From assembly GCA_965209055.1 (NCBI GenBank), contig OZ242374.1, positions 4,512,001 through 4,576,000 on the forward strand: a DNA stretch of 64,000 nucleotides. Reading direction: 5' to 3'. The notes under the pieces are model-generated. The model had not been told where the DNA came from. It ran no database searches and saw nothing but the letters and a program-made list of their open reading frames with translations. The position numbers were made by a program, and so were the translations under genes. Origin of the DNA: Acidobacteriota bacterium. Lineage in GTDB: Bacteria > Acidobacteriota > UBA6911 > RPQK01 > JAJDTT01. Below are positions 26,335 through 41,361 of this stretch, in pieces (the first letter of the stretch is position 1; each line of letters opens with the position of its first letter).

Positions 26335-26467
26335 GGAGCGGCGACTCTCCTGTCGCCGACTGGGGAGGCGGTTTTCCTACCGCCGATGAGGGGGGGTAGG
26401 GGGGACGGCAGTCCCTCCTGTACCAATCCGGTGACCGAAGAGCGGGCGATTGGAAATCGCCCCTCCC
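26335..26467. repeat. REP-like palindrome cluster (REPIN-like)
   Basis: GGAGCGGCGACTCTCCTGTCGCCG (26335-26358), GGGGAGGCGGTTTTCCTACCGCCG (26362-26385), and inverted copy CGGGCGATTGGAAATCGCCCCTCCC (26443-26467). Confidence 0.75.
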
Positions 26468-34335: not shown

Positions 34336-34384
34336 GGAGCGGTGACTTTCTTGTCGCCGAGGAGCGGCGACTTTCCTGTCGCCG
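34336..34384. repeat. Tandem pair of REP-like palindromes
   Basis: GGAGCGGTGACTTTCTTGTCGCCG (34336-34359) and GGAGCGGCGACTTTCCTGTCGCCG (34361-34384). Confidence 0.78.
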
Positions 34385-37746: not shown

Positions 37747-37804
37747 ATTCGGGCGCGAATCTTGCCACATTTCGCGGGCCGAATTCAAGGCGCGGATGAG
37801 GATG

Positions 37805-37883
37805 GGAGCGGCGGTTTCCTAACCGACGAACTCCTGTGTGACAACTTGGCGACGCAGACCGGGCGATTGGAAATCGCCCTTCC
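37805..37883. repeat. Inverted pair of REP-like palindromes
   Basis: GGAGCGGCGGTTTCCTAACCGACG (37805-37828) and CGGGCGATTGGAAATCGCCCTTCC (37860-37883), nearly identical to 26443-26467. Confidence 0.72.
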
Positions 37884-37955
37884 GTACAGTATCTTTCGAC
37901 CACGACCAGGTGAACTGGTTGGAACGAGAGGCGGCGTTGCGGATGGAAGGAAACG

Positions 37956-38378
37956 ATGAGTCTTCTCCATCTTATGGACATCTTCTTCCTCCTCTTCCAC
38001 TCCCTCTGGATCCTCCTGGTGATCCTGGGTTGGATCTGGTCCCGGACCCGCCGCCTGTGCCTGGCGGCGCTGGCGCTGACCACGATTTCGTGGTTCGGAT
38101 TCGGCTACTGGCGGGGGTGGGGCTACTGCATCTGCACCGACTGGCACTGGCAGGTGCGGCGGTCGCTGGGTGACCTCAACCTGCCCCACAACTACATCGG
38201 CTTTCTGATCAGGGAAGGGACCGGTCTGGAGGTCCCGGATCCGGTTCTGGAACCGGTCATCCTGGGCGCCTTCCTGGCGTCCGTAGCCGGGGGCGTTGGT
38301 CTCAGCCTGCGGGACCGCTCCCTGAAAGCCGGCACCGAAGACGGCGACAAGAACGTCGCCGCTTGTCTGTTTAAATAA
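37956..38378 (+). CDS. DUF2784-like membrane protein; C-terminus altered by the IS110 insertion
   Basis: FFLLFHSL..SWFGFGYWRGWGYCICTDWHWQVR; the current stop lies inside the IS left end. Confidence 0.78.
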   Translation: MSLLHLMDIFFLLFHSLWILLVILGWIWSRTRRLCLAALALTTISWFGFGYWRGWGYCICTDWHWQVRRSLGDLNLPHNYIGFLIREGTGLEVPDPVLEPVILGAFLASVAGGVGLSLRDRSLKAGTEDGDKNVAACLFK

Positions 38379-38379
38379 G

Positions 38380-38543
38380 TCTGCCCGGGCCGCTCATGAG
38401 CGGCCCGGGCGGCGGTGGCTGGACCGTGTCGCCGCTGACCGTTAGATCCGGATGTGGAGTAAGGTCGGCCACCGTCTTTCCCGATGTCCTGAATGGATAC
38501 GAGGGCATCAAGGCCCGAATGACAAGCACAGGAGACCGGAAAG
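38380..38543 (+). ncRNA. IS110 bridge (seek) RNA
   Basis: 5' hairpin 38383-38410; target-binding stem 38411-38425/38463-38476 holding GTCGCCGCT and GGAG; donor-binding stem 38476-38491/38529-38543 holding ATGGATAC and GACAAG. Confidence 0.85.
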
Positions 38544-39491
38544 ATGAAACAGCATACCGTAGGCATCGACATCTCGAAAGCGCACCTGGACGCCCACCGG
38601 CTGGCCGACGGCCGATCCGCCCGGTTCGACAATGACCCGGCCGGCTTCCGGGCGCTGATCGATTGGATCGGAACTCCGGTCGAGTGCGTCGCCTACGAGG
38701 CCACCGGCCCCTATCACCGGAACCTCGAGGAAGCGCTGTGGAAAGCGAAGCTGCCGCTGTCGAGAGTGAATCCCTGGCAGGCCCGGTGTTTTGCTCAGGC
38801 GACCGGGAGCCGCGCGAAGACCGACACCGTAGACGCCCGGATGCTGGCCCAGATGGGGGCCAGCCTGGATCCGCGCCGGACCCCGGCGCCGTCCAAGACG
38901 CAACGCCGGCTCCAGGAACTGCAGGGGTGCCGGGACGCGCTGATGCGCCAGCGCACGGCCGCGCTGAACCGCCGCGCCCATTTGCGCGATCCCCTGCCCA
39001 AGCGGCAGAACCAGACCCAGATCAACCTGTTCGAGCGCCAGGCGAAGGCCATTGACCGAAAAATGCAGCAACTGATCGCGGCCGATCCGGAGCGGGCGCG
39101 CAAGTTGGAGATCCTGACCTCCATTCCCGGGATCGCGGCCACCACCGCCGCGGGTCTACTGGCCGAGATGCCGGAGCTGGGCACCCTGAGCGGTAAGGCC
39201 GTCGCCAGTCTGGCCGGGTTGGCCGCCGTTCCTCGCGAGTCGGGGGCTTGGCAGGGACGGGCCTTCATCCGGGGCGGACGAGCGCGGGCGCGACGGCTCC
39301 TGTACATGCCGGCGGTGGCCGCCCTGCGCTGGAACCGCGACCTGGCCGAGGTCTATGGGAGACTGACCGGGCGTGGCAAGCCCGGCAAGGTGGCCCTGGT
39401 CGCCGTCATGCGCAAGCTCATCGTCCTAGCCAACACCCTGGTGAGTCAGGACCGCACCTGGTTGCCCGAAGCGCCCCGTGTGGTCTGCTGA
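38544..39491 (+). CDS. IS110 family DEDD recombinase
   Basis: GIDISK, YEATG, AKTDTVDA, SIPGI, RESG, GKPGKVALVAVMRKL. Confidence 0.95.
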   Translation: MKQHTVGIDISKAHLDAHRLADGRSARFDNDPAGFRALIDWIGTPVECVAYEATGPYHRNLEEALWKAKLPLSRVNPWQARCFAQATGSRAKTDTVDARMLAQMGASLDPRRTPAPSKTQRRLQELQGCRDALMRQRTAALNRRAHLRDPLPKRQNQTQINLFERQAKAIDRKMQQLIAADPERARKLEILTSIPGIAATTAAGLLAEMPELGTLSGKAVASLAGLAAVPRESGAWQGRAFIRGGRARARRLLYMPAVAALRWNRDLAEVYGRLTGRGKPGKVALVAVMRKLIVLANTLVSQDRTWLPEAPRVVC

Positions 39492-39837
39492 AGCGACGGA
39501 GCGAGATGAGGAGGAAAGGGGGCGTGACGGGTCCCCCGAGGAATGATCTGTAGAACTTCCGGTCAGGCCTGGCCGGAAGCTTGCTTACGGCCTTGAAAGC
39601 TCTTCACGCCCTGGGGAGCGTCGGGTCACCCGAAGGGCCGCAGCGAAGCGGAGGAGCCGTAGGCTTGACCCGAGGCTCCCCAGGGCGTACCCGCGCCCAG
39701 TGGACCGGACAGATCACGTGCCAACAGGAAACCGGACACCTCACTGACTAACGACCCGGGATGGAATCACCGATGAGAACCCACCCCTTGCAACATGGAT
39801 ACTCCCGAGTCCCCCACCGGAGAGCAGGAGGACCTCC

Positions 39838-41361
39838 ATGAATAGTCCGGGCGGCGGACTCGCAGCCGTGGACTGGGCGATCATCGTCCTCTACGCGCTG
39901 GGCACGGTCGCCTTGGGATATTTCTACGGGCGCCGTCAGAACAGCCTCAAGGAGTATTTCACCGGCGGCGGACGCATGAATTCCATCGTGGTGGGGTTCT
40001 CCATCTTCGCCACCGGCCTGAGCACCATCTCCTACCTGGCGGTCCCCGGCGAGGCCATCGGCAAGGGTCCGGGCGCCATGTTCAACAACTTCATGGTCTA
40101 TCCCATCCTCTACCTGGTCATCGGCTACGTCTTCCTGCCCCTCTACATGCGCCGGCGCGTCACCAGTGCCTACGAATACCTGGAAGAGACCCTGGGTTTG
40201 CGGATCCGGCTCCTGGGAGCCGTCATATTCATCTTTTCGCGTCTGATCTGGATGTCACTTCTCGTCTACCTGTCCGCCCGGGCCATGGTCGTCATGCTGG
40301 GCGTGGACGAATCGTGGGTGCCCGTCGTTATTCTGGTCACGGGATTCGTCGCCGTGCTCTACACGTCGGTGGGGGGGCTGAGAACCGTCGTCATTACGGA
40401 CACCCTCCAACTGACCCTCATGCTGGGGGGAGCCTGGCTCGTGATCGGGATCGTGACCTACCAACTGGGGGGCGTCACCTGGGTCCCAACCTCCTGGCAG
40501 CCTCATTGGGACCACCAGCCGTGGTTCAGCCTCGACCCGGCAGTCCGGGTCACCGTCTTCGGATCGGTGATTTACGTCGCCCTCGAGGGCATCTGTGGAG
40601 CCGCCTCCGACCAGACCCATGTCCAGAGATACATGGCCACGGGGAGCCTGAAGGCCGCCCGGCGCTCCATGATCGCCAATATTCTTGCGGGCCTCGCCGT
40701 CGTCCTCACTCTCTGGATCACCGGGCTCGCCCTTCTGGGGTACGTGCAGCAGGCGGCTCAGACGCTTCCTTCCCACATCAACGTCGGTCAGGGGGCCGAC
40801 AGTGTCTTTCCCTATTTCATTGCCTACGTGCTGCCTCCCGGCATCTCGGGTCTCGTGGTGTCGGCGATGTTCGCCGCCGGCATGTCCAGCGTCGACTCGG
40901 GCGTGAACTCCATTACCGCCGTGGTCAGCCGCGATTTCCTGCACCGTTTCGGGAGATTGCCGGCCAGCCGGCGCGCCCGGACCCGCCTGGCCAAGATCAT
41001 TGCGTTCTCCGTCGGGACGATCGTGGTGGTGGTCGGCTCCCTCATAGACAACGTGCCGGGAAACATCTGGGCGGTCGGCCAGAAGACGTCCGGGTTGCTC
41101 TCGACTCCCCTGTTCGGTCTCTTTTGTTTCGCCTTTTTCGTCCGCTTCGCGACCACTCTGGGAGTGGTCTTCGGCACCGTGACCGGCATCACGACGGCGG
41201 TCCTGGTGGCCTACTCCGGACCGATCTTCGGATTCGACCCGGAAACCGGATACGACCCGGTGAGTTTCATCTGGATCGGGCCATTCGCCTTGGCGGCGAA
41301 TCTGCTCGTGGGAATCCTGGTGAGCACCCTTCACCGGAAGCTCCGCCGGTCTGACGGTTGA
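39838..41361 (+). CDS. Sodium:solute symporter family transporter
   Basis: DWAIIVLY; YFTGGGRM; SAYEYLE; GGLRTVVITD; DQTHVQRY; FAAGMSSVDSGVNS. Confidence 0.92.
   Translation: MNSPGGGLAAVDWAIIVLYALGTVALGYFYGRRQNSLKEYFTGGGRMNSIVVGFSIFATGLSTISYLAVPGEAIGKGPGAMFNNFMVYPILYLVIGYVFLPLYMRRRVTSAYEYLEETLGLRIRLLGAVIFIFSRLIWMSLLVYLSARAMVVMLGVDESWVPVVILVTGFVAVLYTSVGGLRTVVITDTLQLTLMLGGAWLVIGIVTYQLGGVTWVPTSWQPHWDHQPWFSLDPAVRVTVFGSVIYVALEGICGAASDQTHVQRYMATGSLKAARRSMIANILAGLAVVLTLWITGLALLGYVQQAAQTLPSHINVGQGADSVFPYFIAYVLPPGISGLVVSAMFAAGMSSVDSGVNSITAVVSRDFLHRFGRLPASRRARTRLAKIIAFSVGTIVVVVGSLIDNVPGNIWAVGQKTSGLLSTPLFGLFCFAFFVRFATTLGVVFGTVTGITTAVLVAYSGPIFGFDPETGYDPVSFIWIGPFALAANLLVGILVSTLHRKLRRSDG

What the first reader, a model, noticed from the sequence alone, without database searches (positions are those of the whole stretch)
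38355..39805. IS110 bridge RNA readable from sequence: all four guides match target and donor
Seen: left target guide GTCGCCGCT (38428-38436) equals the left flank 38355-38363. Right target guide GGAG (38456-38459) is the reverse complement of CTCC (39802-39805). Left donor guide ATGGATAC (38493-38500) equals the element right end 39795-39802. Right donor guide GACAAG (38521-38526) is the reverse complement of CTTGTC (38362-38367). The guides lie in two stem-enclosed loops after a perfect 5' hairpin, and the DEDD recombinase is intact. Known: this is the IS621-type bridge RNA layout with a CT core. Inference: an apparently active, programmable recombinase ortholog with a defined 11-bp target, GTCGCCGCTCC.
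Basis: partly seen in the sequence, partly recalled or inferred. Interest (0 to 1): 0.8.

Follow-up and report, generated by a model that had tools for sequence, protein, structure and literature searches.

The report
Bridge-RNA insertion sequence targeting hairpin repeats
This is an intact IS110-type mobile element whose own small "bridge" RNA spells out both the element's ends and the 11-base genomic site it inserts into; it is a well-supported new example of a mechanism described in 2024, not a new mechanism.

Summary
Observation confirmed, interpretation supported. All four guide/DNA matches are at the stated coordinates. By chance the 9-mer, 8-mer and 6-mer are expected 0.0012, 0.0019 and 0.033 times in the 180-nt left end; the 4-mer alone is uninformative.

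The element is 1440 bp (38364-39803) with a CT core on each side. Its 315-aa DEDD/Tnp recombinase aligns to IS621 and ISCro4 with all five catalytic residues.

Independent support:
- Three near-identical copies have the same flanks.
- A 268-nt metagenome contig and a sister genome show the exact empty site.
- Among 22 close elements plus a more distant class, five different left target guides each match their own flank, while donor loop and ends stay constant.
- The RNA fold has 7 compensatory pairs.
- Both handshake positions fit.

The target is a REP-like hairpin repeat. In all five target classes the CT core directly follows a DNA hairpin, as reported for ISPpu10.

Not shown: transcription, circle junction, recombination activity. 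New member of a known kind; modest interest.

The parts
38342..38361 (+). REP-like target hairpin in the left flank (CGGCGAC / AAGAAC / GTCGCCG). Its 3' arm is the left target.
   Evidence: The same unit flanks copies 2 and 3 and occurs at 35 of the 62 empty 11-mer sites in the genome.
38355..38363 (+). Left target (7 nt) plus CT core (38362-38363).
   Evidence: The empty site is contiguous in L038 and in a contig of run X3.
38364..39803 (+). The insertion sequence, 1440 bp counted with the right-hand CT (39802-39803).
   Evidence: Three copies. A joint that skips 1440 bases, 38361 to 39802. Orthologous empty site.
38371..38376 (+). Candidate -10 box TTAAAT of a promoter that would be completed only in the circular form (weak, inferred).
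   Evidence: Read. It lies 17 nt from TTGCAA across the junction. Only 8 of 12 consensus positions match, and the scan of the integrated copy found no promoter.
38381..38412 (+). 5' stem-loop of the bridge RNA (perfect 12-bp core 38383-38410).
   Evidence: Four pairs carry compensatory changes.
38413..38474 (+). Target-binding loop: outer stem 38413-38425 with 38463-38474, enclosing the target guides.
   Evidence: RNAalifold. 12 pairs are 100% paired, one of them compensatory.
38428..38436 (+). Left target guide GTCGCCGCT.
   Evidence: It co-varies with the flank in four variants plus class E.
38456..38459 (+). Right target guide GGAG (core + 2).
   Evidence: At least 4 contiguous matches in 19 of 21 related elements. 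Extended to 7 nt in class E.
38460..38461 (+). Handshake guide of the target loop (UA), complementary to donor positions 6-7 (TA).
   Evidence: The first base U is invariant. The concept comes from PMC11208158.
38475..38544 (+). Donor-binding loop: outer stem 38475-38491 with 38529-38544, inner stem-loop 38503-38516. Its 3' strand overlaps the ribosome-binding site and start codon.
   Evidence: Compensatory pairs.
38493..38500 (+). Left donor guide ATGGATAC (8 nt).
   Evidence: Invariant, like the right end, in all 22 elements and in class E.
38521..38526 (+). Right donor guide GACAAG.
38527..38528 (+). Handshake guide of the donor loop (CA). The C is complementary to target position 7 (G in all target classes).
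38544..39491 (+). Recombinase gene, 315 aa, with DEDD residues D9 E52 D94 D97 and serine S233.
   Evidence: Pfam PF01548 8.5e-22 and PF02371 7.8e-19. Aligned to IS621 and ISCro4 chains. IS621 catalytic residues from PMC11208158.
39598..39695 (.). Palindromic ~76-nt mini-repeat nested in the 3' untranslated part; not part of the core machinery.
   Evidence: Absent from L017, L030 and L034 and present in 7 of the 10 comparable rows. Partial copies occur elsewhere in the genome. Rfam gave only weak microRNA-model hits.
39788..39793 (+). Candidate -35 box TTGCAA in the right end (inferred).
   Evidence: Conserved in all right ends, including class E.
39795..39803 (+). Left donor (ATGGATA) plus CT core at the right end.
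39804..39805 (+). Right target CC.
   Evidence: All three copies continue with CCC.

Best explanation
An intact IS110-group insertion sequence (1440 bp, 38364-39803) sits in a sponge/reef-associated Acidobacteriota genome. Its left end encodes an IS621-type bridge RNA with a 5' stem-loop, a target-binding loop and a donor-binding loop.

Inferred mechanism, by homology with IS621. The element excises as a circle that joins right end to left end at a CT core. The bridge RNA is made from the left end. Its donor loop pairs with both strands of the junction (ATGGATA-CT-TGTC). Its target loop pairs with GTCGCCG-CT-CC. A tetramer of the DEDD/serine recombinase exchanges strands after the CT.

The natural target is the 3' arm and tail of a REP-like hairpin repeat (GGCGAC-N6-GTCGCCGCTCC).

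Shown here: element boundaries, copies, the empty site, guide/flank identities and their co-variation, the strand-specific RNA fold, and the catalytic residues.

Inferred: transcription, circle formation, present-day activity and programmability.
For: - Guide matches at the stated places are very unlikely by chance.
- The protein has PF01548 and PF02371. It aligns over residues 3-297 to ISCro4 (E 1.8e-37) and IS621 (E 2.6e-36). D9/E52/D94/D97/S233-G234 sit opposite IS621 D11/E60/D102/D105/S241-G242.
- The genome holds three copies. Copy 2 differs at 3 of 1440 bases and encodes an identical protein. Copy 3 differs at 6 of 1362 bases. All three have GTCGCCGCT on the left and CCC on the right.
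- Empty site: sister genome G002 has ...GCCGCCGCT directly followed by CCCGAG (L038). A 268-nt contig of DNA run X3 joins 38361 to 39802 with 0 differences and 127 and 141 nt on the two sides. Run X5, from another study, shows the same joint with a 21-nt side.
- Natural reprogramming: in 22 elements (3 here, 19 in three other genomes at 81-88% protein identity) there are four left-target-guide types. Positions 1-8 equal the element's own flank in 20 of 22. The mean own match is 8.2 of 9, against 6.6 for guides paired with flanks of other types.
- A fifth, more distant class (5 loci read of 7 hits) matches its flank with 6 nt on the left and 7 nt on the right.
- The donor loop and the element ends are invariant across all of these.
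- Handshake positions fit: the U after the right target guide faces donor A7, and the C after the right donor guide faces target G7 (concept).
- Fold: z = -4.1. In 12 sequences and 44 pairs, 98.9% of cells are paired, 7 pairs have compensatory changes, 0 of 500 shuffles reach this, and slid controls give 32-52%. G-U pairs occur on this strand only, which points to RNA.
- Contigs from RNA libraries of two studies cover the bridge-RNA region and ORF of close relatives. This is weak evidence.
Against: - No Rfam family matched, even at E up to 10. A bridge-RNA model may simply not be in the library.
- The consensus scan found no sigma-70-like promoter in the integrated copy. The proposed junction promoter matches only 8 of 12 consensus positions.
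- No circle junction was seen. All laid runs were contigs, which cannot show starts, strand or level, and DNA can be present in RNA libraries.
- 62 perfect 11-mer sites remain empty against 3 copies, so activity is low or further constraints exist.
- The right target guide is only 4 nt. It fails beyond the core in L030 and L031, and L018 and L021 each have one left-guide mismatch.
- In guide types B and C the ninth guide base does not match the core T.
- An inner stem-loop between the two target guides is clear only in class E.
- The bridge RNA of copy 3 is split by another IS.
Confidence: 0.9

Rival explanations
1. The element is a genuine bridge-RNA IS, but the copies in this genome are now immobile relics that inserted once and only persist.
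For: Only 3 copies exist, although 62 perfect target 11-mers are free. One copy is disrupted in its bridge RNA. The window element lacks about 110 bp of 3' sequence that its orthologs have. No circle junction or promoter was found.
Against: The copies are 99.6-99.8% identical. Copies 1 and 2 encode identical intact proteins and have intact guides. The window insertion is absent from the same locus in another sample's contig, which is otherwise identical. The conserved right-end 75 nt and all guides are intact.
Confidence: 0.25
2. Target choice is mainly set by the REP hairpin structure or by the protein. The RNA/flank identities would then be a by-product of the element carrying REP-derived sequence.
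For: All five target classes place the CT core directly after a hairpin. Stems are at least 4 bp in 25 of 27 flanks, against 10% of 40,000 random CT positions. An ISPpu10 preprint (abstract and section 7 read) reports the target stem-loop as an extra specificity determinant.
Against: The guide region is not a REP copy, because it has no complementary 5' arm in the RNA. Single-base guide changes (types B versus C, position 5) track single-base flank changes. Class E shares no target sequence, yet matches on both sides. The hairpin is best seen as an added layer, not an alternative.
Confidence: 0.08
3. The four matches are coincidental short repeats in GC-rich DNA next to an ordinary transposase gene.
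For: The 4-mer alone is expected 1.4 times by chance. The 11-mer is common in this genome: 62 copies against 14.7 expected.
Against: The joint expectation is 7.6e-8. The matches recur with co-variation in five guide classes. The guides sit in the loops of a fold supported by compensatory pairs.
Confidence: 0.01

Closest known systems
IS621 (E. coli) bridge recombinase and bridge RNA (Durrant et al. 2024, PMC11208160; Hiraizumi et al. 2024, PMC11208158; passages read)
   Same: - Two-domain recombinase with the DEDD residues and the catalytic serine.
- RNA in the left end with a 5' stem-loop and two internal loops.
- Guide lengths: left target 9 nt, right target 4 nt, left donor 8 nt.
- CT core, an 11-bp target built as 7+2+2, and handshake positions.
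- REP-type natural targets.
   Different: - Host is an Acidobacteriota genome.
- The protein match is only moderate (E 2.6e-36) and the protein is 315 aa, against 326 aa for IS621 (Tnp domain residues 189-326).
- The right donor guide is 6 contiguous nt, against 4 plus a split 2 in IS621.
- The RNA is about 161 nt against 177 nt.
- The right end is long (312 nt) and carries a nested palindromic repeat.
- Nothing has been tested experimentally.
ISCro4 transposase (PDB 9t56)
   Same: Best structural-database hit: E 1.8e-37 over residues 3-297.
   Different: Only the sequence match was seen here. Its RNA was not compared.
ISPpu10 (Pseudomonas putida), 'sequence-structure dual match' (bioRxiv 10.64898/2026.03.19.712850; abstract and section 7 read)
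   Same: It inserts into REP copies in which a 5' extension pairs with the left target to form a stem-loop just upstream of the CT. Here the stems are 7 bp (window), 6-8 bp (type B), 4 bp (C), 5 bp (D) and 5 bp (E).
   Different: The phylum and the REP sequence differ. A functional role for the hairpin is untested here. In this genome 35 of 62 free 11-mers lie in such a hairpin, so 3 of 3 insertions in hairpins is not significant by itself.
ISPpu9 with the Ssr9 small RNA downstream of the transposase (PMC12288879; search listing and abstract only)
   Same: An IS110-family element in REPs whose 3' part carries an extra repeated RNA-like module that also occurs elsewhere in the genome.
   Different: Here the 3' module is a 76-nt palindrome that some orthologs lack. 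No evidence shows that it is an sRNA.
IS1111 group / seekRNA elements (recalled; review abstract PMC13604230 seen in the listing)
   Same: The same recombinase family and RNA-guided targeting.
   Different: From recall, those carry the guide RNA 3' of the gene. Here all four guides lie 5' of the gene.

Membership tests
IS110 family, IS110 group (bridge-RNA recombinases, IS621-like) | N-terminal RuvC-like DEDD domain and C-terminal Tnp domain | tested here: met
   PF01548 at 78 bits (cut-off 29) and PF02371 at 68.3 bits (cut-off 21.3).
IS110 family, IS110 group (bridge-RNA recombinases, IS621-like) | Catalytic D, E, D, D and Ser-Gly | tested here: met
   D9, E52, D94, D97 and S233-G234 align with IS621 D11, E60, D102, D105 and S241-G242. 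The PDB chain numbering is offset by +2. The residue list comes from PMC11208158.
IS110 family, IS110 group (bridge-RNA recombinases, IS621-like) | No terminal inverted repeats; a 2-bp core (CT) on both sides; precise empty site with one core | tested here: met
   CT lies at 38362-63 and 39802-03. Empty alleles have a single CT.
IS110 family, IS110 group (bridge-RNA recombinases, IS621-like) | Non-coding RNA in the left end with a 5' stem-loop and two stem-enclosed internal loops | tested here: met
   Minimum-free-energy fold z = -4.1. RNAalifold gives 49 pairs. 98.9% of cells are paired and 7 pairs are compensatory. The alignment was fitted to the model, so it leans towards that structure.
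IS110 family, IS110 group (bridge-RNA recombinases, IS621-like) | Loop 1 matches the target (left guide = top strand, right guide = complement); loop 2 matches the donor junction | tested here: met
IS110 family, IS110 group (bridge-RNA recombinases, IS621-like) | Guide and target co-vary among relatives | tested here: met
   Five guide classes. Positions 1-8 match in 20 of 22 elements. Class E matches 6 nt on the left and 7 nt on the right.
IS110 family, IS110 group (bridge-RNA recombinases, IS621-like) | Handshake guides complementary to position 7 of the other DNA | tested here: met
   The first handshake base fits in both loops in all 22 elements. The second base fits only in the window element's target loop.
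IS110 family, IS110 group (bridge-RNA recombinases, IS621-like) | [quoted passage not shown] | tested here: inconclusive
   TTGCAA, 17 nt, TTAAAT across the junction matches 8 of 12 consensus positions. This is below the scan tool's threshold, and no promoter was found in the integrated copy.
IS110 family, IS110 group (bridge-RNA recombinases, IS621-like) | The RNA is expressed | tested here: inconclusive
   Contigs from RNA libraries X16 and X19 (two studies) cover 38385-38960 and more at 90-99% likeness. Contigs cannot show transcription, strand or ends.
IS110 family, IS110 group (bridge-RNA recombinases, IS621-like) | Circular intermediate and RNA-programmable recombination | not testable with these tools
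   Needs PCR or long reads and a recombination assay.
REP-targeting IS110 elements with a target stem-loop (ISPpu10-like) | A 5' extension pairs with the left target so that the core follows a hairpin | tested here: met
   Stems of at least 4 bp ending at left-target position 7 occur in 25 of 27 flanks and in all five classes. The background is 10% of 40,000 random CT sites. Classes A, B and D are related REPs, so there are about three independent cases.
REP-targeting IS110 elements with a target stem-loop (ISPpu10-like) | The hairpin contributes to specificity | not testable with these tools
   In this genome 35 of 62 free sites are hairpins, so 3 of 3 insertions in hairpins gives P of about 0.2.
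Rfam RNA families | Match to a curated covariance model | tested here: not met
   Nothing relevant at E up to 10 in 37800-40300.

The most novel reading that the evidence does not exclude
This Acidobacteriota clade may be a natural reprogramming series. The recombinases are closely related (81-88% identity to the window's) and the donor loop and element ends are invariant, yet at least five target specificities arose by a few base changes confined to the target loop. Several of them coexist in one genome. Every target class places the CT core immediately after a DNA hairpin whose 3' arm is the left target. If the hairpin is a required second key, the 'dual-match' gate reported for one Pseudomonas element would be a general, phylum-spanning property of IS110 targeting. 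That could mean recognition of extruded or single-stranded hairpins. Relatives also carry transposase-less bridge-RNA units nested in their left ends, which could be non-autonomous riders.
Probability: 0.3. Interest if true: 0.55.

Novelty: new member of a known kind. Interest (0 to 1): 0.35.

Why it matters
The case shows that a bridge RNA's four guides, and even its handshake positions, can be read correctly from raw sequence. It also provides a compact (315 aa, about 160-nt RNA) ortholog from an uncultured sponge/reef Acidobacteriota lineage.

The relatives form a natural mutational series of target loops on an almost fixed scaffold. This gives a ready-made comparison set for guide rules: tolerance at core position 9, right-guide length from 4 to 7 nt, and the role of target hairpins. 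The mechanism itself has been established since 2024, so the value is incremental.

Tried and rejected
- Rfam scan of 37800-40300 at E up to 10 gave only weak microRNA-model hits on the 3' palindrome.
- The consensus promoter scan found none in 38250-39900.
- My first 200,000-sequence simulation timed out. I replaced it with an analytic Markov expectation.
- MAFFT alignment of the nested 'mini' bridge-RNA units was unreliable in the 5' half. I used only the donor-loop half. I could not define a left end or a convincing right target guide for those units.
- I could not settle an inner stem-loop between the two target guides for types A-D. RNAalifold instead pairs guide bases with loop bases.
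- A regex search for orthologous empty sites found only 1 of 7 loci. A local-alignment anchor then found all 7.
- Read laying gave no 'goes back' joint (circle junction). RNA-library contigs gave no cover of 38200-38376. Higher word depth over 38436-38553 than over the ORF in X19 cannot rank parts of a gene, by the tool's own caveat.
- The look-up of sequencing runs was busy three times before it answered.
- PF01548 search of the genome found only the three copies, so no second IS110 type was available for comparison.
- The exact protein sits in a 12-member cluster in which no member carries a name.
- Supplementary tables of the bridge-RNA papers were not available. I cannot say whether this ortholog is already in their lists.
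Full report
**Observation**

- GTCGCCGCT at 38428-38436 equals the left flank 38355-38363.
- GGAG at 38456-38459 is the complement of CTCC at 39802-39805.
- ATGGATAC at 38493-38500 equals the right end 39795-39802.
- GACAAG at 38521-38526 is the complement of CTTGTC at 38362-38367.

Under a first-order Markov model of the 180-nt left end, the 9-mer, 8-mer and 6-mer are expected 0.0012, 0.0019 and 0.033 times. The 4-mer is expected 1.4 times and indeed occurs twice, so it has no weight alone. The base after the 8-nt left donor guide is G, not the core T. The IS621 left donor guide is also 8 nt (A123-C130; PMC11208158, passage read).

**Boundaries, established independently of the guides**

The genome is one 6.08-Mb contig and holds three copies.
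- The window copy.
- A second copy that differs at 3 of 1440 bases.
- A third that differs at 6 of 1362 bases. It is split after element position 82 by a 1189-bp IS5-family element with a TTAG duplication.

All three copies have ...GTCGCCGCT on the left and CCC on the right. No other DEDD_Tnp_IS110 gene is present in the genome.

Seven same-genus genomes carry the orthologous DUF2784-symporter junction.
- One (L038) has ...GCCGCCGCT directly followed by CCCGAG, with no element.
- One has three tandem repeat units.
- Five have no repeat at all.

In DNA run X3, a 268-nt contig with no differences joins 38361 to 39802. It skips 1440 bases, with 127 and 141 nt on the two sides. Run X5, from another study, shows the same joint but with only 21 nt on one side. 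The element is therefore 38364-39803 with a single CT core in the empty site, and the window insertion is polymorphic in nature.

**Protein**

The 315-aa ORF (38544-39491) has PF01548 and PF02371. It aligns over residues 3-297 with ISCro4 (E 1.8e-37) and IS621 (E 2.6e-36). D9, E52, D94, D97 and S233-G234 stand opposite the IS621 residues D11, E60, D102, D105 and S241-G242, which were shown to be essential (PMC11208158). Copy 2 encodes the identical protein. Copy 3 has two substitutions.

**RNA**

The left end folds far better than shuffles (-83.9 kcal/mol, z = -4.1). RNAalifold on ten variants gives:
- a 14-bp 5' hairpin;
- a 12-bp stem enclosing a loop that holds both target guides;
- a second stem enclosing a loop that holds both donor guides around a small inner hairpin.

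I built a covariance model from these variants. It found further copies in 5 of 8 same-genus genomes and in 0 of 6 genomes of a sister genus. On 12 distinct sequences and 44 pairs, 98.9% of cells pair and 7 pairs in all four helices carry compensatory changes. None of 500 shuffles reaches this, and sliding the partners drops pairing to 32-52%. That alignment was fitted to the model, so it leans towards the structure.

G-U pairs are tolerated on this strand, which argues for an RNA rather than a DNA structure. The 3' strand of the donor-loop stem overlaps the ribosome-binding site and the start codon.

**Natural reprogramming**

Nineteen related loci, at 81-88% protein identity, came from three other Acidobacteriota genome records. 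In the alignment of their left ends, almost all variation lies in the target loop. The donor loop, like the element ends, is invariant.

| Guide type | Left target guide | Elements |
|---|---|---|
| A | GTCGCCGCT | 5 |
| B | ACCGCCGCG | 12 |
| C | ACCGACGCG | 3 |
| D | CACGCCGCT | 2 |

- Positions 1-8 equal the element's own left flank in 20 of 22 elements (3 here plus 19). L018 and L021 each have one mismatch.
- Position 9, the core T, is matched only in types A and D.
- Guides paired with flanks of other types match 6.6 of 9 on average, against 8.2 for their own flank.
- The right guide matches at least core+2 in 19 of 21 elements. L030 and L031 carry GCAG and match only the core. No right end was found in the fetched part of L032.
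- A fifth, more distant class (118-122 bits; 7 hits, 5 read) has a quite different target. It matches 6 nt on the left (GTATGC) and 7 nt on the right (CTCCCTC).
- In DNA runs X3 and X5, one contig in each carries the type-B letters at 38428-38429. In the X3 contig the differences cluster between 38428 and 38461.

**Handshake positions**

In IS621, two bases after the right target guide and two after the right donor guide pair with positions 6-7 of the other DNA after strand exchange. Here the target loop continues with UA, complementary to donor TA. The U is invariant in all variants. The donor loop continues with CA, and the C faces G7, which is present in every target class.

**The target is a hairpin repeat**

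The 11-mer GTCGCCGCTCC occurs 62 times unoccupied, against 14.7 expected. In 35 of those cases it is the tail of the unit GGCGAC-N6-GTCGCCGCTCC. The sister motif with ACCGCC occurs 174 times.

Across all 27 flanks examined, a stem of at least 4 bp ends exactly at left-target position 7 in 25. The stems are 6-7 bp in the three copies of this genome (7 bp at the window copy), 6-8 bp in type B, 4 bp in C, 5 bp in D and 5 bp in E. Only 10% of 40,000 random CT positions show such a stem. Types A, B and D are related repeats, so this amounts to about three independent cases.

An ISPpu10 preprint reports the same geometry and shows experimentally that the stem-loop adds specificity (abstract and section 7 read). 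Within this genome, 3 of 3 insertions in hairpins is not significant (P about 0.2).

**What is not shown**

- No Rfam model matches.
- The integrated copy has no consensus promoter.
- A -35-like TTGCAA in the right end and TTAAAT in the left end would stand 17 nt apart in the circle. They match only 8 of 12 consensus positions. The junction promoter is therefore an inference by analogy with IS621.
- RNA-library contigs from two studies cover the bridge-RNA region and ORF of close relatives. Contigs cannot prove transcription, ends or strand, and no circle junction was seen.

**Verdict**

This is a bona fide IS110-group element with an IS621-type bridge RNA. It is a new member of a known kind. 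The mechanism and the large-scale guide/target co-variation were published in 2024 (PMC11208160, passages read).

The added points are:
- the precise empty site;
- the five-member natural series of target loops on a fixed scaffold;
- the handshake fit;
- the hairpin context of every target class.

I did not search the literature for this particular element. The one search made listed 63 papers on bridge RNAs and IS110/IS621.

Noticed in passing
G000:C1:1171727-1172915 (outside the window; locus L003): [quoted passage not shown] It has DDE_Tnp_1 and DUF772, terminal inverted repeats starting GGAAGGTCTGA, and a 4-bp TTAG duplication. That copy keeps an intact ORF and intact ends, so it could only move with RNA supplied in trans.
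   Followed up: partly
window 26335-26345 and 34361-34371 (minus strand); genome-wide: The genome has a REP-like family, GGCGAC-AGGAAA-GTCGCCGCTCC, with GGCGGY...RCCGCC variants. There are 62 exact type-A 11-mers and 174 type-B 11-mers. At the DUF2784-symporter junction the repeat itself is present in one or three copies, or absent, among 7 same-genus genomes.
   Followed up: partly
window 39598-39695: A 76-nt near-perfect palindrome sits inside the element's 3' untranslated part. It is missing from orthologs L017, L030 and L034 and has partial copies elsewhere in the genome (for example L005 at 86%). It looks like a miniature palindromic mobile repeat nested in the IS. It hits only microRNA models weakly in Rfam.
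   Followed up: partly
window about 39695-39720, compared with L018/L019 etc.: The window element lacks about 110 bp of 3' sequence that most orthologs have (element length 1440 bp against 1552-1555 bp). The last 75 nt or so of the right end are conserved.
   Followed up: no
L025:3450-5730 and L026: Two orthologous elements are 3.4 kb long. Between the recombinase gene and the right end they carry a DUF6788 ORF (140 aa) and a 400-aa ORF with no Pfam match. The enlarged element sits at two different sites, so it moved with this cargo. A 2026 preprint on cargo-bearing IS110 elements is relevant (abstract read).
   Followed up: partly
L020:2298-2479, L035:2298-2479 (weaker covariance-model hits at L050:1961-2132 and L051:1966-2138 were not read): The left ends of two orthologs, L020 and L035, hold a second bridge-RNA-like unit with no transposase gene. 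It has its own 5' hairpin, target loop and donor loop, with a donor guide ATGGAGAC and a matching right-end-like TGGAGACT about 270 nt downstream. Its donor-loop stems show compensatory changes relative to the main RNA. No left end could be defined. It may be a decayed or non-autonomous IS110 derivative.
   Followed up: partly
L058 (G003:C1:3239434-3239617): A truncated remnant: the left end, the 5' hairpin and the 5' half of the target loop with a type-A guide, next to a GCCGCCGCT flank, followed by unrelated sequence.
   Followed up: no
window 38342-38373: The flank hairpin followed by the T-rich start of the element scores as an intrinsic-terminator-like site on the + strand. On the minus strand the 5' hairpin of the bridge RNA does the same. 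Either could insulate the element from read-through transcription.
   Followed up: no
window 37956-38378: The insertion replaces the last 13 or so codons of the DUF2784 ORF with 4 codons from the element (CLFK, then stop). The Pfam domain (residues 6-107) is untouched.
   Followed up: no
whole stretch 38200-39950: Public DNA runs labelled coral reef, sponge and marine metagenome hold 63-83% of the stretch's sampled words, spread over several studies. In the two DNA runs that were laid, the element's interior has far higher summed depth than the window's flanks, as expected for a multi-copy element shared among related genomes.
   Followed up: partly
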